Shown here: positions 2,686 through 59,277 of the stretch, one piece after another
How positions within the stretch are numbered: position 1 is the first letter of the stretch
Layout of the letters: the number at the start of each line of letters is the position of its first letter
Source: Escherichia coli
GTDB lineage: Bacteria; Pseudomonadota; Gammaproteobacteria; Enterobacterales; Enterobacteriaceae
DNA length: 64,000 nucleotides
Assembly (NCBI RefSeq): GCF_013122565.1
Contig: NZ_CP053258.1
Strand: one strand, 5' to 3'
Made by a program: the position numbers and the translations under genes
The notes under the pieces: model-generated
What the model was told of the DNA's origin: nothing
Seen by the model: the letters and a program-made list of their open reading frames with translations, nothing else
Databases searched by the model: none

Positions 2686-2730
2686 GTCGGCTCCTTGAAA
2701 ATGATATGAAACATTGCATTGCATTTCATA

Positions 2731-2748
2731 TTGCATAAAGGATGCCAG
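2731..2748 (-). promoter_or_regulatory. candidate sigma-54 (-24/-12) promoter for hyf operon
   Basis: minus strand reads CTGGCATCCTTTATGCAA (GG-N10-GC spacing) about 45 nt upstream of hyfA ATG; hyf operon is known to be sigma-54 dependent. Confidence 0.5.
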
Positions 2749-2942
2749 TCTGATTAATTTAATATATTCAATAAGTTATGAATTAACTGGATTCTGAACG
2801 GTACAAAAATGATGGTCATTAACGTTCAGCAAAAAATGGATTCGACACCCGTGTCGCAGGGGAAAGCGAGAATGTGATCTTGATCACGATAAGTGAAGTG
2901 TGCTGACCGCAAGCGCAGCCAGCACGGAATGGAGCAAAGTAA

Positions 2943-3413: not shown

Positions 3414-3985
3414 TACTTAACTCCATCCTGTTCATCATGTTGGGAATAATTGACGACGTTAATACTGCCTTGTGCATTGAGTTCTGTACATAGGGCTTTG
3501 AACGCTTGCTCAATATTTGCTGCGTCCGCAGATGCGGGGCTGTGGGCAGTAATCTGAATATGCAACTGCGCAGCCCGTTCATTTTCAGCAGGTTGTGTGC
3601 GCGACACCAGCTCCGCAATGTTCATATGATGCGCGTCGAAAAGTGCTGTGAAGCGTTCAATTAAATGCGGGGAGTCTGCAACATCGACCTGAACCCAGAC
3701 AGATGCTGGCATTGGCGGACGCGGACGCGCCGTCGTGCGCTTCATCACGATTAAAAGATCCAGTTCGGCACCTTTCAACGGTAACGTTGATTCAATCAGA
3801 GTAATGGCATTCCATGAACCGGAAAGCAGCATGATAAACGTGAACTCTTCTCCCAGCATCGCCAGGCGACTGTCTTCAATATTACAGCCGCAACTACTGA
3901 CATGACGGGTGATGGTGTTCACAATTCCAGGGCGATCGGCACCCAACGCAGTGATCACCAGATAATGTTGCGATGACAGTGTCAA
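3413..3985 (-). CDS. gcvR: glycine cleavage system transcriptional repressor GcvR
   Basis: 190 aa from TTG start reading MTLSSQHYLVITALGADRPGIV (ACT-domain protein); ORF-track upstream extension rejected. Confidence 0.85.
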   Translation of the reverse strand: MTLSSQHYLVITALGADRPGIVNTITRHVSSCGCNIEDSRLAMLGEEFTFIMLLSGSWNAITLIESTLPLKGAELDLLIVMKRTTARPRPPMPASVWVQVDVADSPHLIERFTALFDAHHMNIAELVSRTQPAENERAAQLHIQITAHSPASADAANIEQAFKALCTELNAQGSINVVNYSQHDEQDGVK

Positions 3986-18336: not shown

Positions 18337-20316
18337 ATGAATCGTTTTATTATGGCCAACAGTCAGCAATGTCTGGGTTGTCATGCTTGTGAAATCGCCT
18401 GTGTCATGGCTCACAATGATGAGCAACATGTCCTGAGCCAACACCATTTTCATCCCCGAATTACGGTTATCAAACATCAACAGCAACGTAGTGCAGTGAC
18501 CTGTCACCATTGTGAAGATGCGCCCTGCGCCCGTAGCTGCCCTAATGGCGCAATCAGCCACGTTGATGACAGCATTCAGGTCAATCAGCAAAAGTGTATT
18601 GGCTGTAAATCCTGCGTGGTGGCCTGTCCGTTTGGTACGATGCAAATCGTCCTGACACCCGTCGCGGCAGGAAAAGTAAAAGCCACGGCGCATAAATGCG
18701 ACCTTTGTGCAGGGCGCGAAAACGGTCCTGCCTGTGTTGAGAATTGCCCGGCGGACGCGCTGCAGCTGGTCACTGACGTCGCACTCTCCGGCATGGCGAA
18801 ATCCCGCCGCTTGCGCACCGCACGTCAGGAGCATCAACCGTGGCATGCCAGTACCGCTGCACAAGAAATGCCGGTAATGAGTAAAGTCGAACAAATGCAG
18901 GCAACGCCCGCGCGTGGCGAGCCGGATAAACTGGCGATTGAAGCGCGCAAAACCGGTTTTGATGAAATTTATCTGCCATTTCGCGCCGACCAGGCACAAC
19001 GGGAAGCCTCGCGCTGCCTTAAGTGCGGCGAGCACAGCGTTTGTGAATGGACCTGCCCGCTGCATAACCATATTCCGCAGTGGATTGAACTGGTGAAAGC
19101 CGGAAACATCGACGCCGCCGTCGAGCTTTCTCACCAGACCAACACCCTGCCGGAAATTACCGGACGCGTTTGTCCGCAAGACCGTTTGTGTGAAGGTGCC
19201 TGTACTATTCGCGATGAGCACGGCGCGGTAACTATCGGCAACATTGAACGCTATATTTCAGATCAGGCGTTGGCGAAAGGTTGGCGTCCTGACTTAAGTC
19301 ATGTCACCAAAGTGGACAAGCGGGTGGCGATTATCGGGGCAGGTCCGGCAGGGCTGGCCTGTGCGGATGTTCTGACCCGCAATGGCGTGGCGGTGACGGT
19401 GTACGATCGCCATCCAGAAATCGGTGGCTTGCTCACTTTCGGCATTCCTTCTTTCAAACTGGATAAATCCCTGCTGGCACGCCGTCGGGAAATCTTCAGC
19501 GCGATGGGGATTCACTTCGAACTCAATTGTGAAGTGGGTAAAGATGTCTCTTTGGATTCGCTTTTGGAACAATACGACGCGGTCTTCGTTGGCGTAGGCA
19601 CTTACCGTTCCATGAAAGCGGGTTTACCCAATGAAGATGCGCCGGGCGTTTATGACGCGCTGCCGTTCCTCATTGCCAACACTAAACAGGTGATGGGGCT
19701 CGAAGAGCTACCGGAAGAGCCGTTTATCAATACCGCCGGACTTAACGTCGTGGTACTGGGCGGCGGCGACACCGCGATGGACTGTGTGCGTACTGCGCTG
19801 CGCCACGGCGCGAGTAACGTCACCTGCGCTTATCGTCGTGATGAAGCTAACATGCCAGGCTCGAAGAAAGAAGTGAAGAACGCCCGCGAAGAGGGGGCCA
19901 ACTTCGAATTTAACGTCCAGCCGGTGGCGCTTGAGCTGAATGAACAAGGTCACGTCTGCGGGATTCGTTTCCTGCGCACGCGTCTTGGCGAGCCGGATGC
20001 CCAGGGGCGTCGGCGTCCAGTGCCGGTGGAAGGCAGTGAATTTGTCATGCCAGCCGACGCGGTGATTATGGCGTTTGGCTTCAATCCGCACGGGATGCCG
20101 TGGCTGGAGTCGCACGGTGTAACGGTAGACAAATGGGGCCGCATCATCGCGGATGTGGAAAGCCAGTACCGTTACCAGACCACCAATCCGAAAATCTTCG
20201 CCGGTGGCGACGCCGTGCGTGGTGCGGATCTGGTGGTTACCGCAATGGCAGAAGGACGTCATGCGGCACAGGGGATTATTGACTGGCTGGGGGTAAAATC
20301 AGTCAAATCTCACTGA
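18337..20316 (+). CDS. aegA: Fe-S / NAD(P)H-dependent oxidoreductase AegA (GltD-like)
   Basis: 659 aa; N-terminal 4Fe-4S ferredoxin motifs (CxxCxxCxxxCP repeated), C-terminal Rossmann VAIIGAGPAGL. Confidence 0.93.
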   Translation: MNRFIMANSQQCLGCHACEIACVMAHNDEQHVLSQHHFHPRITVIKHQQQRSAVTCHHCEDAPCARSCPNGAISHVDDSIQVNQQKCIGCKSCVVACPFGTMQIVLTPVAAGKVKATAHKCDLCAGRENGPACVENCPADALQLVTDVALSGMAKSRRLRTARQEHQPWHASTAAQEMPVMSKVEQMQATPARGEPDKLAIEARKTGFDEIYLPFRADQAQREASRCLKCGEHSVCEWTCPLHNHIPQWIELVKAGNIDAAVELSHQTNTLPEITGRVCPQDRLCEGACTIRDEHGAVTIGNIERYISDQALAKGWRPDLSHVTKVDKRVAIIGAGPAGLACADVLTRNGVAVTVYDRHPEIGGLLTFGIPSFKLDKSLLARRREIFSAMGIHFELNCEVGKDVSLDSLLEQYDAVFVGVGTYRSMKAGLPNEDAPGVYDALPFLIANTKQVMGLEELPEEPFINTAGLNVVVLGGGDTAMDCVRTALRHGASNVTCAYRRDEANMPGSKKEVKNAREEGANFEFNVQPVALELNEQGHVCGIRFLRTRLGEPDAQGRRRPVPVEGSEFVMPADAVIMAFGFNPHGMPWLESHGVTVDKWGRIIADVESQYRYQTTNPKIFAGGDAVRGADLVVTAMAEGRHAAQGIIDWLGVKSVKSH

Positions 20317-38279: not shown

Positions 38280-39641
38280 ATGAAACTAAAGACCACATTG
38301 TTCGGCAATGTATATCAGTTTAAGGATGTAAAAGAGGTGCTGGCTAAAGCCAACGAACTGCGTTCGGGGGATGTGCTGGCGGGCGTCGCAGCGGCAAGCT
38401 CACAGGAGCGCGTGGCGGCAAAGCAGGTGTTGTCGGAAATGACCGTAGCGGACATCCGCAATAATCCGGTGATTGCCTATGAAGATGACTGCGTGACGCG
38501 GCTGATTCAGGACGATGTTAACGAAACGGCCTACAACCAGATTAAAAACTGGAGCATCAGCGAACTGCGTGAGTATGTGCTGAGCGATGAAACCAGCGTG
38601 GACGACATTGCCTTTACCCGCAAAGGGCTGACCTCGGAAGTGGTCGCGGCGGTAGCGAAGATTTGCTCCAACGCGGACCTGATTTACGGCGCGAAGAAAA
38701 TGCCGGTAATCAAAAAGGCCAATACCACCATCGGTATTCCGGGCACCTTCAGCGCCCGTTTGCAGCCAAATGACACCCGTGACGACGTGCAAAGTATCGC
38801 CGCGCAAATCTACGAAGGGCTTTCCTTCGGGGTGGGCGATGCGGTGATCGGCGTTAACCCGGTGACTGACGACGTGGAAAACTTAAGCCGCGTGCTGGAC
38901 ACCATCTATGGCGTGATCGACAAATTCAACATCCCAACTCAGGGCTGCGTACTGGCGCACGTCACCACCCAGATCGAAGCGATTCGTCGCGGCGCGCCTG
39001 GCGGACTGATTTTCCAGAGTATCTGTGGCAGCGAAAAAGGGCTGAAAGAGTTTGGCGTGGAACTGGCGATGCTCGACGAAGCGCGCGCAGTGGGTGCAGA
39101 GTTCAACCGTATCGCCGGGGAAAACTGCCTCTACTTCGAAACCGGACAAGGTTCAGCGCTATCCGCTGGCGCTAACTTCGGCGCAGACCAGGTGACGATG
39201 GAAGCACGTAACTATGGGCTGGCGCGTCATTACGATCCGTTTATCGTCAACACCGTGGTCGGCTTTATTGGGCCGGAGTATCTCTACAACGACCGCCAGA
39301 TTATCCGTGCGGGCTTAGAAGATCACTTTATGGGCAAGCTGAGCGGCATCTCTATGGGCTGTGACTGCTGTTACACCAACCACGCTGACGCTGACCAGAA
39401 CCTCAACGAAAACCTGATGATCCTGCTCGCCACCGCAGGCTGCAACTACATCATGGGGATGCCGCTGGGTGATGACATCATGCTCAACTACCAGACCACC
39501 GCATTCCACGATACCGCCACTGTGCGTCAGTTACTCAACCTGCGCCCGTCACCGGAGTTTGAACGCTGGCTGGAAAGCATGGGCATTATGGCAAACGGTC
39601 GCCTGACCAAACGGGCGGGCGATCCGTCACTGTTCTTCTGA
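38280..39641 (+). CDS. eutB: ethanolamine ammonia-lyase large subunit EutB
   Basis: 453 aa, MKLKTTLFGNVYQFKDVKEVLAKANELRSGD; directly follows eutA. Confidence 0.96.
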   Translation: MKLKTTLFGNVYQFKDVKEVLAKANELRSGDVLAGVAAASSQERVAAKQVLSEMTVADIRNNPVIAYEDDCVTRLIQDDVNETAYNQIKNWSISELREYVLSDETSVDDIAFTRKGLTSEVVAAVAKICSNADLIYGAKKMPVIKKANTTIGIPGTFSARLQPNDTRDDVQSIAAQIYEGLSFGVGDAVIGVNPVTDDVENLSRVLDTIYGVIDKFNIPTQGCVLAHVTTQIEAIRRGAPGGLIFQSICGSEKGLKEFGVELAMLDEARAVGAEFNRIAGENCLYFETGQGSALSAGANFGADQVTMEARNYGLARHYDPFIVNTVVGFIGPEYLYNDRQIIRAGLEDHFMGKLSGISMGCDCCYTNHADADQNLNENLMILLATAGCNYIMGMPLGDDIMLNYQTTAFHDTATVRQLLNLRPSPEFERWLESMGIMANGRLTKRAGDPSLFF

Positions 39642-43737: not shown

Positions 43738-44607
43738 TTATCGCTTTTTCGAATGTGCTTTCTGGTTGTCGAACCAGTGGAAATAACTGATCACGCCTTC
43801 AGCAATCGCTGTGGCGATTTTCTGACGAAACGCCGCCGTGCCTAACAGTCGCTCTTCTTCCGGGTTGGTGATAAACGAGGTTTCCACCAGCACCGAAGGA
43901 ACCGACGGCGATTTCAACACCACAAACGCGGCTTGTTCGGTGTTGCGGCTGTGCAGTTTATGCACCGGCTTAATCTTCTTCAGAATATGCGAGCCAAGCG
44001 TCAGACTGTTTTTAATAGTATCGGTTTGCACCAAATCAAACAGCACTTGTTGCAATAGGTGATCCTTGTCAGTTGCCTTTTTACCGGCAACTTCATCAGC
44101 GCGGTTTTCGCGTTCAGACAGGTACTTCGCCATTGCGCTACTTGCCCCACGGTTAGAAAGGGCAAAAACCGAAGCGCCTGCTGCTTTTGGGTTAGTAAAA
44201 CCGTCGGCGTGAATTGACATAAACAGATCTGCTCGATGCTTATGGGCGATTTCAACACGATCGTAAAGGGGGATAAACGTATCGCCAGAACGCGTTAAAC
44301 GTGCATCAATGCCGTGATTGCGCAAAATGGAACGAACATTTTTGGCGATCGCCAGCACCACATGTTTTTCTTTCGAACCGTTGCGGCCAATCGCTCCGGT
44401 ATCAATCCCGCCATGACCAGGATCGAGAACGACTATCCGTTTGCTCCCGGCTTTTTTGGCTTTCGGCTTACTGTGTCCGTTGCTGGTTTTTAAAGGTTCG
44501 TCTTTGGCGATGGCTTGCGACATTCCTGACAACGTCAGGGCAGCCAAACCGGCTTTCAGCACCTGGCGGCGCGAAGTGAGTGTTTTTAGTGGTTTAAAAG
44601 TGCTCAT
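43738..44607 (-). CDS. amiA: N-acetylmuramoyl-L-alanine amidase AmiA
   Basis: 289 aa, MSTFKPLKTLTSRRQVLKAGLAALTLSGMSQA twin-arginine signal. Confidence 0.95.
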   Translation of the reverse strand: MSTFKPLKTLTSRRQVLKAGLAALTLSGMSQAIAKDEPLKTSNGHSKPKAKKAGSKRIVVLDPGHGGIDTGAIGRNGSKEKHVVLAIAKNVRSILRNHGIDARLTRSGDTFIPLYDRVEIAHKHRADLFMSIHADGFTNPKAAGASVFALSNRGASSAMAKYLSERENRADEVAGKKATDKDHLLQQVLFDLVQTDTIKNSLTLGSHILKKIKPVHKLHSRNTEQAAFVVLKSPSVPSVLVETSFITNPEEERLLGTAAFRQKIATAIAEGVISYFHWFDNQKAHSKKR

Positions 44608-44820
44608 ACGGCCTGAGTTGTAATAATAAAGTTCCAGATGTTATATCGTATCGCGTAATCCGTTACGACGGTTTGATGTTGAGAATTGTTTTACTTTTCA
44701 TTTCAATAGTTGACAACTCCCCATTATGCCACTTTTTCAACCTATTTTCGTCAGATATTGGCTAATTCGACCGTTCACGCCATAATCAGCCTTTTAACCC
44801 GCAAAAAGGTAACGAATACC

Positions 44821-45246
44821 ATGGAGATACGCGTATTTCGCCAGGAAGATTTCGAAGAGGTCATCACCCTTTGGGAACGTTGCGACTTGCTGCGTCCGTG
44901 GAACGATCCGGAAATGGACATCGAGCGTAAGATGAACCATGACGTCAGTTTGTTTTTGGTCGCTGAGGTGAACGGTGAAGTGGTCGGAACGGTGATGGGC
45001 GGTTATGACGGGCATCGCGGGTCTGCTTATTATCTTGGCGTGCATCCAGAGTTTCGTGGGCGTGGGATTGCCAATGCGTTGCTTAACCGGCTGGAGAAAA
45101 AGCTGATTGCTCGCGGCTGCCCGAAAATTCAGATCAACGTGCCGGAAGATAACGACATGGTGCTCGGAATGTATGAACGCCTGGGATATGAACACGCCGA
45201 CGTGCTGAGTCTGGGTAAGCGTTTGATTGAAGATGAAGAGTACTGA
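44821..45246 (+). CDS. ypeA: GNAT-family acetyltransferase YpeA
   Basis: 141 aa from [29 protein letters not shown]; ORF-track 37-codon extension rejected. Confidence 0.88.
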
Positions 45247-45682
45247 GTTTCATCCTGTCCATTATGATGCGCACGGTCGCCTGCGTTTACCCTTGCTCTT
45301 CTGGCTTGTGCTATTGCTTCAGGCGCGAACCTGGGTGCTGTTTGTCATTGCCGGTGCGTCGCGCGAGCAGGGTACTGCGCTGCTAAATCTGTTTTATCCC
45401 GATCACGATAATTTCTGGCTGGGGCTGATTCCTGGCATTCCGGCGGTGCTGGCGTTTTTGTTGAGCGGTCGGCGGGCTACGTTTCCTCGCACCTGGCGTG
45501 TACTCTATTTTCTGTTGCTGTTGGCGCAGGTGGTTTTACTTTGCTGGCAACCGTGGCTGTGGCTGAACGGTGAATCCGTTAGCGGTATCGGTCTGGCGCT
45601 GGTAGTGGCGGATATTGTGGCGTTAATCTGGCTGCTGACCAATCGACGTTTACGCGCTTGTTTTAATGAAGAAAAAGAATAA
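45233..45682 (+). CDS. yfeZ: inner-membrane protein YfeZ (DUF2919)
   Basis: 149 aa from [29 protein letters not shown]. Confidence 0.85.
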
Positions 45683-45703
45683 CGCAGAGGTGCGCTTTGT
45701 TTA

Positions 45704-45803
45704 TGCCGGATGCGGCGTGAACGCCTTATCCGGCCTACAAAACATCGAAAATTCAATATATTGCAGGAGAAAGTAGGCCTGATAAGCGTAGCGCATCAGG
45801 CAA
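45704..45803. repeat. REP/BIME element (two PUs with linker) after yfeZ
   Basis: GCCGGATGCGGCGTGAACGCCTTATCCGGCCTAC ... linker AATTCAATATATTGCAG ... GTAGGCCTGATAAGCGTAGCGCATCAGGC. Confidence 0.85.
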
Positions 45804-45888
45804 TTTTGTGTTTGTCATCAACCTTTAACGGCACTTTTTGGTGAATTTGAACTCCAAGCAACGTTATTGAATAACCAAAGGAAGTGAC

Positions 45889-46464
45889 ATGAAATCGCTG
45901 CGTTTAATGTTATGCGCTATGCCGTTGATGCTGACCGGCTGTTCCACGATGTCGTCAGTTAACTGGTCTGCCGCTAACCCGTGGAACTGGTTTGGGTCGT
46001 CCACCAAAGTGAGCGAGCAGGGCGTTGGTGAATTAACGGCGTCCACACCACTGCAAGAACAAGCCATTGCCGATGCGCTTGATGGCGATTATCGCCTGCG
46101 CAGCGGAATGAAAACCGCGAACGGCAACGTGGTGCGCTTTTTTGAAGTGATGAAGGGCGACAACGTGGCGATGGTGATTAACGGCGATCAAGGCACGATC
46201 AGTCGCATTGACGTGCTGGATAGCGATATTCCTGCTGACACCGGTGTTAAAATCGGTACACCGTTTAGCGACCTTTACAGCAAAGCATTTGGCAATTGCC
46301 AAAAAGCTGATGGTGATGATAATCGTGCCGTCGAATGTAAAGCCGAAGGCAGTCAACATATTAGCTACCAGTTCAGCGGGGAATGGAGTGGTCCTGAAGG
46401 GTTAATGCCTTCGGACGATACCCTGAAAAACTGGAAAGTCAGTAAAATTATCTGGCGGCGTTAA
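45889..46464 (+). CDS. yfeY: lipoprotein YfeY (DUF1131)
   Basis: 191 aa, MKSLRLMLCAMPLMLTGCS lipobox. Confidence 0.9.
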   Translation: MKSLRLMLCAMPLMLTGCSTMSSVNWSAANPWNWFGSSTKVSEQGVGELTASTPLQEQAIADALDGDYRLRSGMKTANGNVVRFFEVMKGDNVAMVINGDQGTISRIDVLDSDIPADTGVKIGTPFSDLYSKAFGNCQKADGDDNRAVECKAEGSQHISYQFSGEWSGPEGLMPSDDTLKNWKVSKIIWRR

Positions 46465-46475
46465 TTTGCGTCTGA

Positions 46476-47459
<984 letters not shown>

Positions 47460-47516
47460 GCGTTTCTGATTCGATGATGAAAGGCCAGGCAGTAACATTA
47501 CTGACTGGCCTTTTTA

Positions 47517-48818
47517 TTACTGCTTTAACGCCGCATATACCTGATCAACAACCCAACCATAAGTTGCAATCGGCAACTGACCGCTTTCGAACATATTGGG
47601 ATTTTTTTGTGGATCGGCAACGGGTGAATGTGGCTTGTTGCTTAACATCACAATCGCCATATGATTCACCGGATCGATAACGGTTACCGTCCCGGTCCAA
47701 CCTGTGTGACCGTAGGTTTGCGGGCTTGCCAGCGTGCCAAACGTCGGCGTCATGGTGGCATTACCATTCACGCGCCAGCCGAGGCCAAAAGTGGCATCTT
47801 CCTTAGAGCTGGTGGTGAACATCTTCACCGTTTCCGCACTGAACAGCTGCACATCGCCATAGCCACCGCCGTTCAGCATCGTTTGCATTAACACCGCAAT
47901 ATCGCCGGTATTGGAAAACAAACCTGCGTGCCCGGAAACGCCGCCCATCGAATAAAAGGCTTTTTCATCGTGCACCTGACCCCAGAGAGTGGAGGTGCGG
48001 ATATTCGGGAAGTGGATCACGCCATCGCGGGTATTGCCGTTCAATTCTGTGGCGGCAATTTGTTGCGGTTTAAAGCCTTTCAGTAGCGGATTAAACACCG
48101 TATGCGTCAGACCGAGCGGGCGATAAATCGACTCTTCAACATAGCGGTCAAGCGGCTGACCGGTGACCGACTCGACGATAAATCCAAGCAGCATATAATC
48201 GACATCACTGTAAATATGCTTGCTGCCGGGCTGATACTCCAGCGGCGTGCGCTTGATCATCTCCAGCGTCTGGCCTTTATCCTGGGAATATAACGCGCCC
48301 GCGACCGCTTTATTCGGGTATTGCGGGTCCGCCGGGAAACCGCCGCTGTGATGCAGCAGATCAGAAATCCGCAGGGTGTTTTTGCCTTTAATCGCATCGT
48401 TCGCGCCATCGGCAAATCCCGGAATATATTTCGCAATCAGATCGTCAGGATGCAGCTTGCCTTCGCTCATTAGCTTTTGCAGAGCGAAGTTAGTGGCGTA
48501 CATCTTGGTGTTTGAGGCTAGATCATACAGCGTCCCGGTGGTGGCTTTTACCGGCTGCGCCATCAATACGCTGCCATCGTACTTTTTCGCCGCGCCCCAG
48601 GCTTTGCGATACACAATCTGATTATCTTTAATAATCAGCAGGTTTACGCCGGGATAACCGGCATCAACTTGCTGGCTTATCCAGCGATCCATCTGGTTAA
48701 GCCGTTCGACGTTGAACCCTGCTTTCTCTGGCGAACTTTCTGTCAGAACAGGGTATTTTGCGGCGCTGACGCTACAACTAACAGCCAGCAGAGAAAGATA
48801 GAGCATTGTCCGTTTCAT
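47517..48818 (-). CDS. yfeW: penicillin-binding protein 4B / beta-lactamase-family protein YfeW
   Basis: about 433 aa from MKRTMLYLSLLAVSCSVSA signal peptide; SxxK motif (SNTK); exact start codon uncertain. Confidence 0.85.
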   Translation of the reverse strand: MKRTMLYLSLLAVSCSVSAAKYPVLTESSPEKAGFNVERLNQMDRWISQQVDAGYPGVNLLIIKDNQIVYRKAWGAAKKYDGSVLMAQPVKATTGTLYDLASNTKMYATNFALQKLMSEGKLHPDDLIAKYIPGFADGANDAIKGKNTLRISDLLHHSGGFPADPQYPNKAVAGALYSQDKGQTLEMIKRTPLEYQPGSKHIYSDVDYMLLGFIVESVTGQPLDRYVEESIYRPLGLTHTVFNPLLKGFKPQQIAATELNGNTRDGVIHFPNIRTSTLWGQVHDEKAFYSMGGVSGHAGLFSNTGDIAVLMQTMLNGGGYGDVQLFSAETVKMFTTSSKEDATFGLGWRVNGNATMTPTFGTLASPQTYGHTGWTGTVTVIDPVNHMAIVMLSNKPHSPVADPQKNPNMFESGQLPIATYGWVVDQVYAALKQ

Positions 48819-48822
48819 AATA

Positions 48823-50247
<1,425 letters not shown>

Positions 50248-50250
50248 GGG

Positions 50251-51147
50251 TTATTCCTTGTCTAAAACCTGACGAATAAAGCCGCCGTGTTGATCCAGGC
50301 GTTTTTTAGCTTCTGCTGCATCGAGATTTTTCAGCACCATCACAATGGCCGTTTTACAGTTGCGCTCGCAGGCAATTAACGCCGCTTCCGCTTGCTCTGC
50401 GCTACATCCGGTAGCGTTTTTGACGATATTGACCTGGCGCACGTGCAGTTTTTCGTTGGTGGCGACCACATCGACCATCAGGTTGCCGAACACTTTGCCG
50501 GATTTAATCATCAGCCCGGTGGAGAGCATATTGAGCACCAGTTTCTGCGCTGTGCCTGCTTTCATTCGCGAAGAACCAGTGACCACTTCGGCACCTACAA
50601 TCGGTGTAATGGCAAACTCGGCGGTGGTTGAAACGGCACTCCCCGGATTACAGGAAATTCCCACTGTGCGGCAGCCGAGCTGGCGTGCGTATTCCAGTCC
50701 GGCAATTACATACGGCGTGCGACCACTGGCCGCAATACCAACCACCACATCCTGCGCGGTTAAACCGATGTTTTTCAGATCGTTAACGCCGCCTTCCCGG
50801 CTATCTTCCGCGCCTTCCACCGCGTGCTGAATGGCATATTCGCCGCCAGCAATTAATCCAACTACCAGGCCTGGTTTCACGCCGTAGGTGGGCGGACATT
50901 CGCTGGCATCCAGAATCCCCAGACGACCGGATGTTCCCGCACCGAGATAAATCAGACGACCGCCGCCGCTTACCTGGGCGTGGATAACATCGATCGCCGC
51001 GGCGATATCCGGCAGGACGCGCTCAACAGCAAGCGGTACGGCTTTATCTTCATCGTTGATAATCCGGCACATTTCCAGCGTCGATACGCGGTCAATTTCA
51101 GCCGAAGCGGCGTTTGAGCCTTCAGTAATCATCTTTTCAAGTTGCAT
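50251..51147 (-). CDS. murQ: N-acetylmuramic acid 6-phosphate etherase
   Basis: 298 aa, [34 protein letters not shown] domain. Confidence 0.95.
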
Positions 51148-51250
51148 CGGTGGTGACCTTACTATTTACGATCAAATAATTGCAGATGTATGGAATCATA
51201 TATCCCGAATTGACAGACTTAAAGGAATCATTGAGTCTACACTCGCAGAG

Positions 51251-51266
51251 TGTGAAGAGCGTCATA
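51251..51266. promoter_or_regulatory. CRP-like site in murQ-murR divergent control region
   Basis: TGTGA-AGAGCG-TCATA (consensus TGTGA-N6-TCACA). Confidence 0.45.
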
Positions 51267-51310
51267 AGAACTTAAGCGGAATTTATGCTGCCAGCCCAGG
51301 AGAGTGGAAG

Positions 51311-52168
51311 ATGTTGTACCTGACGAAAATACGCAATGCGGAAAGTGAATTTACCGGGAACGAGCAAAAAATTGCTGACTTTCTGCGGGCCAACGTGAGT
51401 GAGCTGAAATCCGTCTCTTCTCGCAAGATGGCGAAACAGCTCGGCATCAGCCAGTCGAGTATTGTGAAGTTTGCCCAGAAGCTCGGCGCTCAAGGTTTTA
51501 CCGAATTGCGTATGGCGTTAATTGGCGAATACAGTGCCAGCCGGGAGAAAACGAATGCCACGGCGCTGCACCTGCACAGTTCGATTACCAGTGATGATTC
51601 GCTGGAAGTGATTGCCCGCAAACTGAATCGCGAAAAAGAGCTGGCGCTGGAGCAAACCTGCGCGTTGTTCGACTACGCACGGCTGCAAAAAATCATTGAT
51701 GTCATCAGTAAAGCGCAATTTATCCAGATAACGGGCCTGGGCGGATCGGCGCTGGTGGGGCGCGATCTGTCGTTCAAACTGATGAAAATTGGATATCGCG
51801 TGGCCTGCGAAGCCGACACGCACGTACAAGCCACCGTTTCCCAGGCGTTGAAAAAAGGCGATGTACAAATCGCTATCTCTTACAGCGGCAGTAAAAAAGA
51901 GATTGTCTTGTGCGCAGAAGCGGCACGAAAGCAGGGGGCAACGGTGATTGCCATTACTTCTCTGGCTGACTCTCCGCTGCGGCGGCTGGCGCATTTCACG
52001 CTCGATACCGTTTCCGGTGAAACCGAATGGCGTAGCTCGTCGATGTCTACCCGCACGGCGCAAAATTCTGTTACCGATTTACTGTTTGTTGGTCTTGTGC
52101 AACTCAATGATGTGGAGTCATTGAAAATGATTCAGCGCAGCAGTGAGCTAACACAACGCCTGAAATGA
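51311..52168 (+). CDS. murR: RpiR/SIS-family transcriptional repressor MurR
   Basis: 285 aa from [25 protein letters not shown]; HTH plus SIS domain; 370-aa ORF-track version overlaps murQ and is rejected. Confidence 0.9.
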
Positions 52169-52296
52169 TGCATAAAGCAGCGACTGGATTGAGATTTTCC
52201 TGAATTAGTGAGCTGATCCGCAGCAATATTTTGTTTATCCTGTATTTTCAGAGGGAATGGAGTGTAACGCTCTGTATTAACAAGGAGAGCATTAAA

Positions 52297-53088
52297 ATGG
52301 GTAAACTCACGGGCAAGACAGCACTGATTACGGGCGCATTGCAGGGAATTGGCGAAGGAATTGCCAGAACTTTTGCGCGTCATGGCGCAAACCTAATCTT
52401 GCTGGATATCTCCCCTGAGATCGAAAAGCTGGCGGACGAACTGTGTGGTCGTGGTCATCGCTGTACGGCGGTTGTCGCCGATGTGCGTGACCCGGCGTCG
52501 GTAGCCGCAGCTATCAAACGCGCGAAGGAAAAAGAAGGGCGCATTGATATCCTGGTGAATAACGCAGGCGTTTGTCGTCTGGGCAGTTTCCTCGATATGA
52601 GCGATGAAGATCGCGATTTCCATATTGATATCAATATTAAAGGCGTATGGAACGTCACGAAGGCGGTGCTGCCGGAGATGATTGCGCGCAAAGATGGTCG
52701 CATTGTGATGATGTCTTCGGTCACTGGCGATATGGTGGCCGATCCGGGTGAAACGGCGTACGCGTTAACGAAAGCGGCAATTGTTGGCCTGACTAAATCG
52801 CTGGCGGTAGAGTACGCGCAGTCGGGGATTCGCGTTAACGCCATCTGCCCGGGATACGTCCGCACGCCAATGGCGGAAAGCATTGCCCGCCAGTCGAACC
52901 CGGAAGATCCAGAATCGGTGCTGACTGAAATGGCGAAAGCAATCCCGCTGCGTCGCCTCGCCGATCCGCTGGAAGTTGGCGAACTGGCGGCCTTCCTCGC
53001 ATCGGATGAATCCAGCTATTTAACCGGTACACAGAATGTGATTGATGGCGGCAGCACACTGCCAGAGACGGTTAGCGTCGGTATCTGA
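52297..53088 (+). CDS. ucpA: short-chain dehydrogenase/reductase UcpA
   Basis: 263 aa from MGKLTGKTALITGALQGIGEGIA (TGxxxGxG). Confidence 0.9.
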   Translation: MGKLTGKTALITGALQGIGEGIARTFARHGANLILLDISPEIEKLADELCGRGHRCTAVVADVRDPASVAAAIKRAKEKEGRIDILVNNAGVCRLGSFLDMSDEDRDFHIDINIKGVWNVTKAVLPEMIARKDGRIVMMSSVTGDMVADPGETAYALTKAAIVGLTKSLAVEYAQSGIRVNAICPGYVRTPMAESIARQSNPEDPESVLTEMAKAIPLRRLADPLEVGELAAFLASDESSYLTGTQNVIDGGSTLPETVSVGI

Positions 53089-53391
53089 TTCACTTCTGTT
53101 TCCTCCCTGCATTTGTGGGGAGGATTTCGTCTTGAACTACGTTCACCAGGCTATTTTATTTGTCATTTTGGCCCCGGGCAGTGCTCGAAATCCTCACGTA
53201 CTATGTGTACGCCCCGGTTTCTCCGCGCTGTTCGTGTCCAAACTGACTGCAACAATTACGCCTGTTGAACCAAGTTCTTATTCCCTTTTCAACTTCCAAA
53301 TCACCAAACGGTATATAAAACCGTTACTCCTTTCACGTCCGTTATAAATATGATGGCTATTAGAAAGTCATTAAATTTATAAGGGTGCGCA

Positions 53392-54408
53392 ATGGCCGTT
53401 AACTTACTGAAAAAGAACTCACTCGCGCTGGTCGCTTCTCTGCTGCTGGCGGGCCATGTACAGGCAACGGAACTGCTGAACAGTTCTTATGACGTCTCCC
53501 GCGAGCTGTTTGCCGCCCTGAACCCGCCGTTTGAACAGCAATGGGCCAAAGATAATGGCGGCGACAAACTGACGATAAAACAATCTCATGCCGGGTCATC
53601 AAAACAGGCGCTGGCAATTTTGCAGGGCTTAAAAGCCGACGTTGTCACTTATAACCAGGTGACCGACGTACAAATTCTGCACGATAAAGGCAAGCTTATC
53701 CCGGCGGACTGGCAGTCGCGCCTGCCGAATAATAGCTCGCCGTTCTACTCCACCATGGGCTTCCTGGTGCGTAAGGGCAACCCGAAGAATATCCACGACT
53801 GGAACGACCTGGTGCGCTCCGACGTGAAGCTGATTTTCCCGAACCCGAAAACGTCGGGTAACGCGCGTTACACCTATTTAGCCGCGTGGGGCGCAGCGGA
53901 TAAAGCTGACGGTGGCGACAAAGCCAAAACCGAACAGTTTATGACCCAGTTCCTGAAAAACGTTGAAGTGTTCGATACCGGCGGTCGTGGCGCGACCACC
54001 ACTTTTGCCGAGCGCGGCCTGGGCGATGTGCTGATCAGCTTCGAGTCGGAAGTGAACAACATCCGCAAACAGTATGAAGCGCAGGGCTTTGAAGTGGTGA
54101 TTCCGAAAACCAACATTCTGGCGGAATTCCCGGTGGCGTGGGTTGATAAAAACGTGCAGGCCAACGGTACGGAAAAAGCCGCCAAAGCCTACCTGAACTG
54201 GCTCTACAGCCCGCAGGCGCAAACCATTATCACCGACTATTACTACCGCGTGAATAACCCGGAAGTCATGGACAAACTGAAAGATAAATTCCCGCAGACC
54301 GAGCTGTTCCGCGTGGAAGACAAATTTGGCTCCTGGCCGGAAGTGATGAAAACCCACTTCACCAGCGGCGGCGAGTTAGACAAGCTGTTAGCGGCGGGGC
54401 GTAATTAA
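53392..54408 (+). CDS. cysP: thiosulfate/sulfate-binding periplasmic protein CysP
   Basis: 338 aa, [25 protein letters not shown] signal peptide. Confidence 0.95.
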
Positions 54409-55241
54409 TGTTTGCAGTTTCTTCAAGACGCGTGCTGCCGGGCTTTACTTTAAGCCTTGGCACCAGTCTGCTGTTTGTGTGCCTGATATTGCTGCTGCCG
54501 CTCTCTGCGCTGGTGATGCAGCTTTCTGAGATGAGCTGGGCGCAGTACTGGGAGGTGATCACCAACCCGCAGGTGGTCGCGGCCTACAAAGTGACGCTGC
54601 TGTCGGCGTTTGTGGCATCGATTTTTAACGGCGTTTTCGGTCTGCTGATGGCGTGGATCTTAACCCGCTATCGCTTTCCGGGTCGCACGCTGCTTGATGC
54701 GCTGATGGATTTACCCTTTGCGCTGCCAACGGCAGTCGCCGGTTTAACGCTGGCCTCGCTCTTTTCCGTAAACGGTTTTTACGGTGAATGGCTGGCGAAG
54801 TTTGATATCAAAGTCACCTATACCTGGCTTGGTATTGCGGTGGCGATGGCCTTTACCAGCATTCCGTTTGTGGTGCGTACCGTGCAGCCGGTGCTGGAAG
54901 AGTTAGGCCCGGAATATGAAGAAGCGGCAGAAACGCTCGGTGCAACGCGCTGGCAGAGTTTCTGCAAAGTGGTGCTGCCGGAACTTTCTCCGGCGCTGGT
55001 GGCGGGCGTGGCGTTGTCGTTTACCCGTAGTCTTGGTGAGTTTGGCGCGGTGATTTTTATCGCCGGGAACATCGCCTGGAAGACGGAAGTGACGTCGCTG
55101 ATGATTTTTGTGCGCTTGCAGGAGTTTGATTACCCGGCGGCGAGTGCGATTGCTTCGGTGATCCTCGCGGCATCTCTGCTGCTGCTGTTCTCAATTAACA
55201 CTCTGCAAAGTCGCTTTGGTCGGCGTGTGGTAGGTCATTAA
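54408..55241 (+). CDS. cysU: sulfate/thiosulfate ABC transporter permease CysU (CysT)
   Basis: 277 aa, [24 protein letters not shown]. Confidence 0.95.
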   Translation: MFAVSSRRVLPGFTLSLGTSLLFVCLILLLPLSALVMQLSEMSWAQYWEVITNPQVVAAYKVTLLSAFVASIFNGVFGLLMAWILTRYRFPGRTLLDALMDLPFALPTAVAGLTLASLFSVNGFYGEWLAKFDIKVTYTWLGIAVAMAFTSIPFVVRTVQPVLEELGPEYEEAAETLGATRWQSFCKVVLPELSPALVAGVALSFTRSLGEFGAVIFIAGNIAWKTEVTSLMIFVRLQEFDYPAASAIASVILAASLLLLFSINTLQSRFGRRVVGH

Positions 55242-56116
55242 TGGCGGAAGTTACCCAATTGAAGCGTTATGACGCGCGCCCGATTAACTGGGGCAAATGG
55301 TTTCTGATTGGCATCGGGATGCTGGTATCGGCGTTCATCCTGCTGGTGCCGATGATTTACATCTTCGTGCAGGCGTTCAGCAAAGGGCTGATGCCGGTTT
55401 TACAGAATCTGGCCGACCCGGACATGCTGCACGCCATCTGGCTGACGGTGATGATTGCGCTGATTGCCGTACCGGTAAACCTGGTGTTCGGTATTCTGCT
55501 GGCCTGGCTGGTGACGCGCTTTAACTTCCCCGGACGCCAGTTACTGCTGACGCTACTGGACATTCCTTTTGCCGTGTCACCGGTGGTTGCCGGTCTGGTG
55601 TATCTGCTGTTCTACGGCTCCAACGGCCCGCTCGGCGGCTGGCTGGATGAACATAATCTGCAAATTATGTTCTCCTGGCCCGGAATGGTGCTGGTCACGA
55701 TCTTCGTGACGTGTCCGTTTGTGGTGCGCGAACTGGTGCCGGTGATGTTAAGCCAGGGCAGCCAGGAAGACGAAGCGGCGATTTTGCTTGGCGCATCCGG
55801 CTGGCAGATGTTCCGCCGTGTCACATTGCCGAACATCCGCTGGGCGCTGCTTTATGGCGTAGTGCTGACCAACGCCCGCGCGATTGGCGAGTTTGGCGCG
55901 GTATCGGTGGTTTCCGGCTCGATTCGTGGCGAAACACTTTCGCTGCCGTTACAGATTGAATTGCTGGAGCAGGACTACAACACCGTCGGCTCCTTTACCG
56001 CCGCCGCGTTGTTGACGCTGATGGCGATTATCACCCTGTTTTTAAAGAGTATGTTGCAGTGGCGCCTGGAGAATCAGGAAAAACGCGCACAGCAGGAGGA
56101 ACATCATGAGCATTGA
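55241..56116 (+). CDS. cysW: sulfate/thiosulfate ABC transporter permease CysW
   Basis: 291 aa, [26 protein letters not shown]. Confidence 0.95.

Positions 56117-58371: not shown

Positions 58372-59277
<906 letters not shown>

What the first reader, a model, noticed from the sequence alone, without database searches (positions are those of the whole stretch)
51148..51310. Divergent murQ-murR control region with CRP-like half-sites
The 163-bp spacer between murQ (minus) and murR (plus) contains TGTGAAGAGCGTCATA (51251..51266), a single-mismatch CRP site, in an AT-rich region that should also hold MurR operators. The ORF track's 370-aa murR frame would overlap murQ; the real start is the internal ATG at 51311.
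Basis: partly seen in the sequence, partly recalled or inferred. Interest (0 to 1): 0.15.

Follow-up and report, generated by a model that had tools for sequence, protein, structure and literature searches.

The report
Known murQ–murR control region
This is the already characterised genetic switch between two Escherichia coli genes for recycling the cell-wall sugar MurNAc, with the known CRP activator site and the MurR repressor sites where expected, so it is correct but ordinary.

Summary
The 163-bp spacer 51148..51310 separates murQ (minus) from murR (plus). TGTGAAGAGCGTCATA sits at 51251..51266, one mismatch from TGTGA-N6-TCACA. The spacer is 162/163 identical to E. coli K-12.

This 16-mer is the annotated CRP site of promoter murQp1. 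A table built from RegulonDB/EcoCyc places CRP at -71.5 from TSS 2545733, which maps to window 51187 and site centre 51258.5. An independent K-12 SMRT-Cappable-seq TSS maps to window 51188.

In 16 orthologous loci from seven genera, the CRP core and two GGAAT-N5-ATTCC-like boxes (51192..51206 and 51224..51238) keep their spacing to within 1 bp. These boxes fit the two adjacent MurR operators reported by Jaeger & Mayer (2008). They cover the murQp1 -10 and the stretch between the -35 and CRP.

MurR starts at ATG 51311. K-12 annotation, Pfam and NCBIfam models, and in-frame stops in relatives all agree. The 370-aa ORF is an artefact.

Verdict: already known, low interest. Still open is the murR promoter position, because the primary paper was not readable here.

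Side finding: 1047 of 5426 complete E. coli genomes carry one deletion allele that removes murR and the right half of the CRP site.

The parts
50251..51147 (-). murQ coding sequence (MurNAc-6-phosphate etherase, 298 aa); first gene of the murQ-murP-yfeW operon
   Evidence: ORF. NCBIfam TIGR00274 equivalog, 511.6 bits. RefSeq annotation of matching E. coli loci.
51153..51180 (+). Candidate murR promoter reading rightwards through the operators and the CRP site: -35 GTGACC at 51153..51158, 16-bp spacer, -10 AATAAT at 51175..51180, predicted TSS about 51187. Not verified.
   Evidence: Consensus scan only. It is placed here because my recollection of the Jaeger & Mayer 2008 abstract describes face-to-face promoters. 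The region is conserved within Escherichia but not in Citrobacter.
51187..51188 (-). Transcription start of murQp1, giving a murQ leader of 40-41 nt
   Evidence: K-12 TSS 2545733 (RegulonDB/EcoCyc via PMC12360894 Table S3) maps to window 51187. The SMRT-Cappable-seq murQ-murP operon TSS 2545732 (PMC6131387 Suppl. Data 2) maps to window 51188. Mapping uses K-12 coordinate = 2596920 - window coordinate, which is valid because the spacers align without gaps.
51195..51200 (-). murQp1 -10 hexamer TATGAT (5/6 to consensus); lies inside MurR box O1
   Evidence: Sequence and position -13..-8. Agrees with the 'CRP to -10 = 59' column of PMC12360894 Table S3.
51191..51207 (.). MurR operator O1: T-GGAAT-CATAT-ATCCC-G. 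It matches GGAAT-N5-ATTCC at 9 of 10 arm positions and covers -20..-4 of murQp1.
   Evidence: The left arm is conserved in all 16 orthologous loci at a fixed distance from the CRP site. It is a perfect 7-bp-arm palindrome in S. enterica arizonae (AAGGAAT-CATAT-ATTCCTT). The assignment to MurR is my inference plus the literature statement that there are two repeats.
51217..51222 (-). murQp1 -35 hexamer TTAAGT (TTAAGC in K-12; 3/6 to consensus); a weak -35, as expected of an activator-dependent promoter
   Evidence: A 16-bp spacer from the -10 and a 36.5-bp distance from the CRP centre match Table S3 ('16' and '37'). The only window/K-12 difference in the spacer (51217, A versus G) falls at its last position.
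51223..51239 (.). MurR operator O2: A-GGAAT-CATTG-AGTCT-A (8 of 10 arm positions). Its centre is 32 bp from the O1 centre. It covers -52..-36 of murQp1, between the -35 and the CRP site.
   Evidence: GAATCATTGAGTCT is invariant across Escherichia and two Citrobacter loci.
51227..51227 (-). Second, upstream start site recorded for murQ-murP-yfeW transcripts in K-12. It lies inside O2, with a possible -10 TAGACT at 51239..51234.
   Evidence: SMRT-Cappable-seq TSS 2545693 (PMC6131387 Suppl. Data 2), mapped. PMC3141248 notes that murQ is reported to have multiple promoters.
51248..51269 (.). CRP (CAP) site: 22-mer GAGTGTGAAGAGCGTCATAAGA, core 16-mer 51251..51266, centre 51258.5 = -71.5 from murQp1 (class I position)
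   Evidence: Table S3 of PMC12360894 gives -71.5. TGTGA and TCA.A are invariant in 16 of 16 orthologous loci.
51277..51293 (+). Conserved block TATGCTGC (51284..51291) inside a weak third GGAAT-N5-ATTCC look-alike (CGGAATTTATGCTGCCA). It may be a -10-like element of a murR-proximal promoter and/or the remnant of a third MurR operator. Function unresolved.
   Evidence: TAT(G/C)CTGC lies 18-21 nt after the CRP 16-mer in Escherichia, Citrobacter and Salmonella. The look-alike matches 7 of 10 arm positions (GGAAT-N5-ATTCC); counted over the 17-mer TGGAAT-N5-ATTCCA it has 3 mismatches.
51299..51302 (+). murR Shine-Dalgarno GGAG, 8 nt before the ATG
   Evidence: Sequence. G(G/A)GAGTGGAAG-ATG is conserved in Escherichia.
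51311..52168 (+). murR coding sequence (285 aa, HTH_6 + SIS domains); true start is ATG 51311
   Evidence: K-12 b2427 annotation. Pfam HTH_6 profile position 1 aligns to residue 86 of the 370-aa ORF. NCBIfam NF012026 matches 1-285 of 285. In-frame stops lie 6-63 nt upstream in 8 relatives.

Best explanation
This is the known divergent murQ/murR control region of E. coli and works as a dual-input switch.

cAMP-CRP binds the imperfect palindrome centred at 51258.5. From there, at -71.5, it activates the leftward promoter murQp1 as a class I activator. murQp1 has -35 TTAAGT, -10 TATGAT and a TSS at 51187/51188.

MurR is an RpiR-family HTH+SIS repressor encoded on the right. It binds two GGAAT-N5-ATTCC-like inverted repeats whose centres are 32 bp, about three helical turns, apart. 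O1 covers the -10 and the start site. O2 fills the DNA between the -35 and CRP, where the RNA polymerase alpha-CTD would have to sit. MurR therefore both occludes the promoter and blocks CRP-dependent activation. MurNAc-6-phosphate releases MurR.

murR transcription has to cross the same operators and the CRP site, so MurR autoregulates and CRP also influences murR.

What is shown here: sequence identity to K-12, the element coordinates, the TSS and CRP-position match to public K-12 data, cross-genus conservation, and the MurR start codon.

What is taken from the literature: CRP and MurR binding, and the inducer.

What is inferred: the exact operator boundaries, the alpha-CTD exclusion by O2, and the position of the murR promoter.
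For: The spacer is 162/163 identical to K-12 MG1655 2545610..2545772, with no gaps.

PMC12360894 Table S3, built from RegulonDB/EcoCyc, lists murQp1 with CRP at -71.5, TSS 2545733, CRP-to--35 of 37, CRP-to--10 of 59 and a spacer of 16. These values reproduce exactly the window elements 51187, 51222, 51200 and 51258.5. An independent SMRT-Cappable-seq TSS at 2545732 maps to window 51188.

PMC9177960 states that MurR binds two neighbouring repeats in the murR-murQ intergenic region, represses murQP and itself, and is released by MurNAc-6-P. It also shows EMSA with the MG1655 fragment. PMC3141248 lists murP as regulated by 'CRP, MurR'.

Conservation: in 16 loci from Escherichia, Citrobacter, Salmonella arizonae, Pluralibacter, Enterobacter, Lelliottia and Huaxiibacter, TGTGA-N6-TCA(T/A)A and two GGAAT boxes keep the spacing 32 bp + 27 bp to within 1 bp. 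Meanwhile the CRP-to-murR-ATG distance varies from 60 to 115 bp. Perfect palindromes TGGAAT-N5-ATTCCA in relatives define the half-site.

Three of the window's 33 matches to GGAAT-N5-ATTCC at two or fewer mismatches lie in this 163-bp spacer, where about 0.07 is expected.

The spacer differs from K-12 at 1 of 163 positions, against 42 of 302 fourfold-degenerate sites in the flanking genes (Fisher p = 8e-8).

MurR identity and start.
Against: The primary paper (Jaeger & Mayer 2008) could not be read here. The footprint boundaries and the murR TSS are therefore not checked against it, and my operator boundaries are comparative inferences.

In PMC12360894 the murQp1 row carries no asterisk and murQ does not appear in the ChIP-seq list. 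So no CRP peak was called at this site in EAEC 042 under their conditions.

The site is imperfect: 9 of 10 core positions and only 11 of 22 to the full consensus, counted by hand.

A second TSS at window 51227 would place CRP at about -31.5. That is not an activating position, so CRP may act differently on that promoter.

The right arms of O1 and O2 are degenerate in E. coli and poorly conserved across genera.
Confidence: 0.9

Rival explanations
1. The CRP site acts mainly on murR rather than murQ. In this reading it is a class II-like activator, or a -35-overlapping repressor, of a murR-proximal promoter whose -10 is the conserved TATGCT at 51284..51289.
For: TAT(G/C)CTGC is conserved 18-21 nt downstream of the CRP 16-mer in Escherichia, Citrobacter and Salmonella. 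In Citrobacter and Salmonella a perfect MurR palindrome follows it at a position expected for an autoregulatory operator just downstream of such a start.
Against: The implied CRP centre is about -37.5 to -38.5, not the canonical -41.5 (my arithmetic). No murR TSS appears in the SMRT-Cappable-seq operon table. In the distant genera the -10-like elements on the murR side are not at a fixed distance from CRP, whereas the leftward elements are. The RegulonDB-derived annotation assigns the site to murQp1. As I recall the 2008 abstract, the murR promoter lies on the murQ side and CRP acts on murR as a roadblock. This rival is not exclusive of the main explanation.
Confidence: 0.15
2. The TGTGA-N6-TCATA match is a chance occurrence in an AT-rich spacer and has no regulatory role.
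For: One-mismatch matches do occur by chance, with 1.67 expected per 64 kb. No CRP ChIP-seq peak was called in EAEC 042.
Against: About 0.004 matches are expected in 163 bp. TGTGA and TCA.A are invariant in 16 of 16 orthologous loci, down to 54% MurR identity, and sit at a fixed distance from the MurR boxes. The site is curated as a CRP site at -71.5. The title and citations of Jaeger & Mayer 2008 also point the same way.
Confidence: 0.02
3. MurR is the 370-aa protein starting at TTG 51056, overlapping murQ, and the 'spacer' is coding sequence.
For: In the window and in K-12 the frame is open for 360 nt upstream of the ATG, with a TTG at -255.
Against: Pfam HTH_6 and the NCBIfam MurR equivalog begin at profile position 1 on the ATG at 51311. 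K-12 annotation gives 285 aa. Spacer length differs by amounts that are not multiples of 3 (163, 171, 193 and 195 bp). An in-frame stop lies 6-63 nt upstream of the ATG in 8 relatives. A GGAG Shine-Dalgarno sits 8 nt before 51311.
Confidence: 0.01
4. The palindrome is an FNR site rather than a CRP site. This would explain the FNR-dependent anaerobic induction of murQP reported in Shigella flexneri.
For: PMC4229854 reports FNR-dependent murQP expression in S. flexneri. FNR and CRP motifs are related.
Against: On the same centre the sequence reads GTGAA....GTCAT, only 6 of 10 to TTGAT-N4-ATCAA, and it has the CRP-type GTGA/TCA core (hand comparison). The best other FNR-like stretch, TTGACAGACTTAAA, is 7 of 10 and is not conserved in other Escherichia. 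The FNR effect may be indirect.
Confidence: 0.03

Closest known systems
E. coli K-12 murQp1 / murR regulatory region (Jaeger & Mayer 2008, J Bacteriol 190:6598; RegulonDB/EcoCyc murQp1, CRP at -71.5)
   Same: It is the same locus. The spacer is 163 bp and 162/163 identical. The CRP 16-mer, the -10, both GGAAT boxes, the Shine-Dalgarno and the start codons are all identical.
   Different: There is one substitution, at 51217 (A versus G), in the last position of the weak -35. The flanking genes are about 4.5% diverged from K-12. No functional difference is expected.
Vibrio cholerae PmurQP (Walker et al. 2023, eLife; PMC10328515)
   Same: [quoted passage not shown] A second DNA-binding protein counteracts CRP activation.
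   Different: In V. cholerae the antagonist is the quorum-sensing regulator HapR, which shares the CRP site itself and contacts a CRP surface that normally touches RNA polymerase. Here the antagonist is the pathway-specific repressor MurR, which acts at separate operators downstream of a class I site.
Classical repressor plus class I CRP promoters such as lac (CRP at -61.5, LacI operator over the start site); stated from general knowledge
   Same: A weak -35, an upstream CRP site on the class I face, and a pathway-specific repressor whose operator overlaps the core promoter and which is released by a pathway metabolite.
   Different: CRP is one helical turn further upstream (-71.5). There are two tandem operators, one of them between CRP and the -35. 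The regulator gene is divergent, and by report it is transcribed across the same operators and the CRP site.
Other RpiR/AlsR-family (HTH_6 + SIS) sugar-phosphate-sensing repressors, for example HexR, AlsR/RpiR, and NanR of Vibrio vulnificus (PDB 4ivn)
   Same: The same two-domain architecture. Palindromic operators lie in the promoter of an adjacent catabolic operon, and a phosphosugar is the inducer.
   Different: The half-site found here, GGAAT-N5-ATTCC, is specific to the MurR orthologues examined. I did not compare it with operators of the other family members.

Membership tests
CRP (CAP) binding site, class I activating configuration | Two-fold symmetric core TGTGA-N6-TCACA | tested here: met
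   TGTGA-AGAGCG-TCATA matches 9 of 10 core positions. About 0.004 such matches are expected in 163 bp.
CRP (CAP) binding site, class I activating configuration | Site centre near -61.5, -71.5, -82.5 or -92.5 from a mapped transcription start | tested here: met
   The centre at 51258.5 is -71.5 from TSS 51187 (K-12 2545733). It is -70.5 from the SMRT-Cappable-seq TSS at 51188.
CRP (CAP) binding site, class I activating configuration | The dependent promoter has a defective core element (a weak -35) | tested here: met
   The -35 TTAAGT matches 3 of 6 and the -10 TATGAT matches 5 of 6.
CRP (CAP) binding site, class I activating configuration | Conservation of the site in orthologous regulatory regions | tested here: met
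   TGTGA and TCA.A are invariant in 16 of 16 loci from seven genera, always with the same single mismatched position.
CRP (CAP) binding site, class I activating configuration | Physical binding of cAMP-CRP and cAMP/CRP-dependent transcription | not testable with these tools
   Reported for K-12 by Jaeger & Mayer 2008, known here only from its title and from citations; the paper itself was not readable. No CRP ChIP-seq peak was called at murQ in EAEC 042.
MurR (RpiR/AlsR-family) operator pair | Two adjacent inverted repeats in the murR-murQ intergenic region | tested here: met
   GGAAT-CATAT-ATCCC at 51192..51206 and GGAAT-CATTG-AGTCT at 51224..51238, with centres 32 bp apart. PMC9177960 states that there are two neighbouring repeats. 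The default repeat finder reported only the direct 8-mer GGAATCAT and no inverted pair, because the arms are short and imperfect.
MurR (RpiR/AlsR-family) operator pair | Operators overlap the regulated promoter | tested here: met
   O1 spans -20..-4 and contains the -10. O2 spans -52..-36 and contains the second TSS.
MurR (RpiR/AlsR-family) operator pair | Conserved wherever a MurR orthologue is present | tested here: met
   The left arms (GGAAT) are conserved at fixed spacing in all 16 loci, and perfect palindromes occur in Salmonella and Citrobacter. The right arms are degenerate.
MurR (RpiR/AlsR-family) operator pair | MurR binding that is weakened by MurNAc-6-phosphate | not testable with these tools
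   Shown by EMSA for the MG1655 intergenic fragment in PMC9177960. That fragment differs from the window's spacer at one base.
MurR protein (NCBIfam NF012026 equivalog) | Full-length match above the curated cut-off, with HTH_6 and SIS domains | tested here: met
   637.6 bits against a cut-off of 408, residues 1-285 on profile 1-285. HTH_6 and SIS hits are above Pfam thresholds. The PDB MurR SIS domains 7en5, 7en6 and 7en7 are nearly identical.

The most novel reading that the evidence does not exclude
The most novel reading the evidence leaves open is that the module is a fixed-geometry nucleoprotein switch rather than a set of independent sites. Across seven genera the spacing O1 - 32 bp - O2 - 27.5 bp - CRP is held to within 1 bp. 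The CRP right half-site always carries the same single defect. O2 sits exactly where the alpha-CTD must bind. This suggests that MurR acts chiefly as an anti-activator of CRP, possibly through direct MurR-CRP contact. It also suggests that Escherichia has simplified an ancestral three-operator design, since Citrobacter and Salmonella keep a perfect third palindrome at the murR start. A natural test exists: 19% of complete E. coli genomes carry one deletion allele that lacks murR and the CRP right half-site but retains O1, O2 and murQp1.
Probability: 0.2. Interest if true: 0.3.

Novelty: already known. Interest (0 to 1): 0.08.

Why it matters
It matters little for discovery. The region, its CRP site and its MurR operators were characterised in E. 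coli K-12 in 2008 and are curated in RegulonDB/EcoCyc.

The check is still useful for annotation. It confirms that murR starts at 51311 and that the 370-aa ORF is an artefact. It also places the curated promoter, CRP site and probable operators on window coordinates.

The comparative work adds three small points:
- a cross-genus half-site for MurR (GGAAT-N5-ATTCC);
- evidence that the whole spacer is under much stronger constraint than synonymous sites in the flanking genes;
- the observation that about one fifth of complete E. coli genomes have lost murR and the intact CRP site in a single deletion. This predicts MurR-independent, and probably CRP-independent, murQP expression in those strains.

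Tried and rejected
- **Primary paper.** I tried to read Jaeger & Mayer 2008 by PMC id and by DOI. It is not held. Details of that paper beyond what other papers cite are from my memory of its abstract and are marked as such.
- **Supplements.** Those of PMC9177960 and PMC3141248 are not held.
- **Sequence searches in papers.** Full-text searches for the CRP 16-mer and for the operator sequences found nothing relevant.
- **Wasted searches.** A search on 'roadblock/face-to-face' returned noise. Searches for 'murRp/murQp' gave no promoter coordinates.
- **TSS datasets.** The Cappable-seq supplement (PMC4782308) had no entry for this locus in the stored text. Thomason et al. 2015 is not held. No dataset available here gave a murR TSS.
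- **Inverted repeats.** The repeat finder with a 6-nt seed reported none. The operators only emerged from cross-species alignment.
- **RNA elements.** Rfam found no family in 51000..51450 at E <= 1. The putative murR leader and the murQ leader fold no better than shuffles, with z-scores of +0.52 and -0.18. An RNA-structure explanation for the high conservation is therefore rejected.
- **FNR.** An FNR-site reading was considered because of the Shigella data and rejected on sequence grounds.
- **CRP weight matrix.** I did not score the site with a CRP weight matrix, because I had no verifiable matrix. I used consensus mismatches, shuffles and conservation instead.

Full report
**1. The observation**

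The window sequence shows the murQ ORF on the minus strand at 50251..51147 and an in-frame ATG for murR at 51311. That leaves a 163-bp spacer, 51148..51310. TGTGAAGAGCGTCATA lies at exactly 51251..51266. It departs from TGTGA-N6-TCACA at one position.

In the whole 64-kb window there are six matches with at most one mismatch, against 1.67 expected from shuffles. About 0.004 would therefore be expected in any given 163 bp. The spacer has GC 0.42, against 0.54 and 0.52 for the two genes. TGTGA at 51251 is the only exact TGTGA or TCACA in the spacer. 'One two-fold site' describes it better than 'half-sites'.

**2. Identity of the locus**

The 551 bp around the spacer match 5425 of 5426 complete E. 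coli genomes. In the listed hits the features under the match are annotated murQ and murR.

In K-12 MG1655, murR (b2427, 285 aa) and murQ (b2428) are divergent, with a 163-bp spacer at 2545610..2545772. The window's spacer aligns to it without gaps and differs at one base, 51217 (A versus G).

The proteins match the NCBIfam equivalogs for MurR (NF012026, 637.6 bits, residues 1-285 on profile 1-285) and MurQ (TIGR00274, 511.6 bits). The solved E. coli MurR SIS domain (7en5, 7en6, 7en7) is nearly identical.

**3. The MurR start**

The mechanical ORF list extends murR to a TTG at 51056 (370 aa), overlapping murQ. Four lines of evidence place the start at 51311:
- The K-12 annotation.
- Pfam HTH_6 profile position 1 aligns to residue 86 of the long ORF, which is the ATG at 51311.
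- The NCBIfam equivalog aligns end to end with the 285-aa form.
- In eight relatives from other Escherichia lineages, Citrobacter and Salmonella arizonae, an in-frame stop lies 6-63 nt upstream of the conserved ATG. Spacer lengths also differ by amounts that are not multiples of three: 163, 171, 193 and 195 bp.

A GGAG Shine-Dalgarno lies 8 nt upstream of the ATG.

**4. The CRP site is the curated one**

Table S3 of PMC12360894 compares CRP-dependent promoters of K-12 and EAEC 042. According to its footnote, its sequences are taken from RegulonDB and EcoCyc. It lists murQp1 with CRP at -71.5, CRP-to--35 of 37, CRP-to--10 of 59, a spacer of 16 and TSS 2545733.

The gap-free mapping is K-12 coordinate = 2596920 - window coordinate. 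With it, the TSS is window 51187, an A on the minus strand. The site centre 51258.5 is then exactly -71.5. The -10 is TATGAT at 51200..51195, and the -35 is TTAAGT at 51222..51217 (TTAAGC in K-12).

An independent experiment agrees. SMRT-Cappable-seq (PMC6131387, Suppl. Data 2) records a murQ-murP operon start at 2545732, which is window 51188. It also records a second start for murQ-murP-yfeW at 2545693, which is window 51227. PMC3141248 lists murP as regulated by 'CRP, MurR' and notes that murQ is reported to have more than one promoter.

One caveat applies. The murQp1 row has no asterisk and murQ is absent from the ChIP-seq list. So no CRP peak was called there in EAEC 042 under their conditions.

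**5. MurR operators and comparative evidence**

[quoted passage not shown] It states that MurR represses murQP and itself and is released by MurNAc-6-P, and it shows EMSA on the MG1655 fragment. I could not read the 2008 paper, so I located the repeats independently.

A scan of GTDB representative genomes with MurR returned 21 loci. Fourteen of them encode MurR at 54-98% identity and were used. These came from Escherichia, Citrobacter, Salmonella enterica arizonae, Pluralibacter, Enterobacter, Lelliottia and Huaxiibacter. The other seven, at 27-30% identity, were not used. With the window and K-12, this gives 16 loci.

I anchored the 16 upstream regions on TGTGA-N6-TCA.A. This showed three things:
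- The CRP core is present in all 16, always with the same single mismatched position: TCA(T/A)A instead of TCACA.
- Two GGAAT-led boxes lie 59 and 27 bp to the left of the CRP 16-mer, within 1 bp, in every locus.
- The distance from CRP to the murR ATG varies from 60 to 115 bp.

The CRP site is therefore in register with the leftward elements, not with murR.

Perfect palindromes in relatives define the half-site as (T)GGAAT-N5-ATTCC(A). Examples are AAGGAAT-CATAT-ATTCCTT at box 1 of S. arizonae, and TGGAATTAATGATTCCA or TGGAATTTTTGATTCCA close to the murR start in Citrobacter and Salmonella.

In the window, O1 is GGAAT-CATAT-ATCCC at 51192..51206 (9 of 10 arm positions). O2 is GGAAT-CATTG-AGTCT at 51224..51238 (8 of 10). 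Their centres are 32 bp apart.

On its own the pattern is weak, with 33 matches in the window against 27 expected. But three of the matches fall within this 163-bp spacer, where about 0.07 is expected.

**6. Mechanism**

Relative to murQp1, O1 covers -20..-4, which includes the -10. O2 covers -52..-36, the stretch between the weak -35 and the CRP site at -71.5, and it contains the second TSS.

The best-supported reading is this. cAMP-CRP at a class I position recruits RNA polymerase to a promoter with a poor -35. MurR bound to O1 and O2 occludes the core promoter and the DNA that the alpha-CTD needs. MurNAc-6-P releases MurR.

The positions are shown here. Binding and induction are taken from the literature. 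The alpha-CTD exclusion is my inference.

As I recall the abstract of Jaeger & Mayer 2008, murR and murQ are expressed from non-overlapping face-to-face promoters. MurR also interferes with its own transcription, and CAP affects murR as a roadblock. That implies a murR start on the murQ side of the operators. The only scan hit there is -35 GTGACC (51153) with -10 AATAAT (51175).

I could not verify this, and no murR TSS is in the datasets I could search. A conserved TAT(G/C)CTGC block 18-21 nt right of the CRP site (51284..51291) could be a second, proximal murR promoter. I keep that as a rival or additional reading.

**7. Constraint**

The spacer differs from K-12 at 1 of 163 positions. Fourfold-degenerate sites in murQ and murR differ at 42 of 302 (Fisher p = 8e-8). 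Against two further Escherichia lineages it is 1/163 and 3/163, compared with 19% and 25% at fourfold sites.

Across complete E. coli genomes, 3975 of the 4339 that carry this spacer type are at least 99% identical to the window. No genome reaches 99% for the body of murR.

Divergence resumes in the flanking coding sequence on both sides of the spacer. This argues for selection rather than a recombination tract. No Rfam family and no unusually stable RNA fold accounts for it. Dense overlapping DNA signals are the likelier cause.

**8. Comparison with known systems and novelty**

This is the K-12 murQp1/murR region itself, not merely a relative of it.

The Vibrio cholerae murQP promoter is also CRP-dependent. 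There it is antagonised by HapR sharing the CRP site. Here a pathway-specific repressor uses separate operators.

In logic the region resembles lac-type promoters with a repressor plus class I CRP (general knowledge). The differences are that CRP is one helical turn further upstream, an operator lies between CRP and the -35, and the regulator gene is divergent.

Novelty: already known. Interest: low (0.08).

**9. Side observations**

- **murR deletion allele.** The murR body is found in 4378 of 5426 complete E. coli genomes. The other 1047 all carry one junction allele, as in Nissle 1917. In it, murQ is followed by ucpA. O1, O2 and the murQp1 core remain. The sequence changes at the TGTGA of the CRP site and continues into the last approximately 60 nt of murR. 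This leaves TGTGATGTCACTGAAA, two mismatches with the key C lost, in the same register. I found no paper on this in the held library.
- **Third operator.** Citrobacter and Salmonella arizonae have a third, perfect MurR palindrome near the murR start, which Escherichia lacks.
- **Different first gene.** In S. arizonae, one Citrobacter and Enterobacter chuandaensis, murQ lies about 1.7-1.9 kb from the control module. In S. arizonae the intervening DNA encodes a DUF2057 protein.
- **Divergent lineage.** Over 12 kb the window is at most 97.2% identical to any complete E. coli genome, so it comes from a somewhat divergent Escherichia lineage.

Noticed in passing
window 51238..52110 (region absent in the variant); L023 (E. 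coli Nissle, NZ_CP172017.1) 401..680: 1047 of 5426 complete E. coli genomes (19%) share one deletion allele that removes murR. murQ is then followed directly by ucpA. MurR boxes O1 and O2 and the murQp1 core are retained. The junction sits at the TGTGA of the CRP site and leaves TGTGATGTCACTGAAA in the same register, which looks like a microhomology-mediated deletion. It predicts MurR-independent murQP expression in those strains. I found no paper on it in the held library.
   Followed up: partly
L006 3001-40, L007, L009, L010 (about 20-40 nt upstream of murR ATG); window 51277..51293: Citrobacter and Salmonella enterica arizonae carry a third, perfect 17-bp palindrome (TGGAATTAATGATTCCA or TGGAATTTTTGATTCCA) between the CRP site and the murR start. 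Escherichia has a roughly 30-bp gap there and only a weak look-alike, CGGAATTTATGCTGCCA, overlapping a conserved TATGCTGC block.
   Followed up: partly
L009, L010, L012 (positions about 1080..2800): In S. arizonae, one Citrobacter and Enterobacter chuandaensis, the gene abutting the conserved O1-O2-CRP module is not murQ, which lies about 1.7-1.9 kb further on. In S. arizonae (L010) the first gene appears to begin with a signal-peptide-like sequence (hand translation, not checked with a tool), and the next ORF has a DUF2057 domain. The same control module therefore seems to drive a longer operon there.
   Followed up: partly
window 51148..51310 versus 50251..51147 and 51311..52168: The spacer is far more conserved than the flanking genes. 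It differs from K-12 at 1 of 163 positions, against 14% at fourfold-degenerate sites (p = 8e-8). 3975 E. coli genomes are at least 99% identical in the spacer, and none is for the murR body. Divergence resumes in the flanking coding sequence on both sides of the spacer.
   Followed up: yes
window 51227 (minus strand): K-12 SMRT-Cappable-seq records a second murQ-murP-yfeW start (2545693) inside MurR box O2, with a possible -10 TAGACT at 51239..51234. CRP would be centred at about -31.5 from it, so its relation to CRP is unclear.
   Followed up: partly
window 2873..2888, 3908..3923, 18400..18415, 39360..39375, 59112..59127: Five other one-mismatch matches to TGTGA-N6-TCACA occur in the window, making 6 found against 1.67 expected. 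TGTGATCTTGATCACG at 2873 is the closest to the full consensus. I did not check their gene context.
   Followed up: no
window 52231..53088 (+): The ORF list gives ucpA as 285 aa from a TTG at 52231, whereas K-12 ucpA (b2426) is annotated as 792 nt (263 aa). This is probably another over-extended ORF, with the real start at the internal MGKLTGK.
   Followed up: no
window 44000..56000: The best identity to any of 5426 complete E. coli genomes over this 12 kb is 97.2%. MurR is closest (98%) to a gut MAG labelled Citrobacter sp. (DXKH01000041.1), which carries the same 163-bp Escherichia-type spacer (1 difference from the window). The window seems to come from a divergent Escherichia lineage not represented among the complete genomes.
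   Followed up: no
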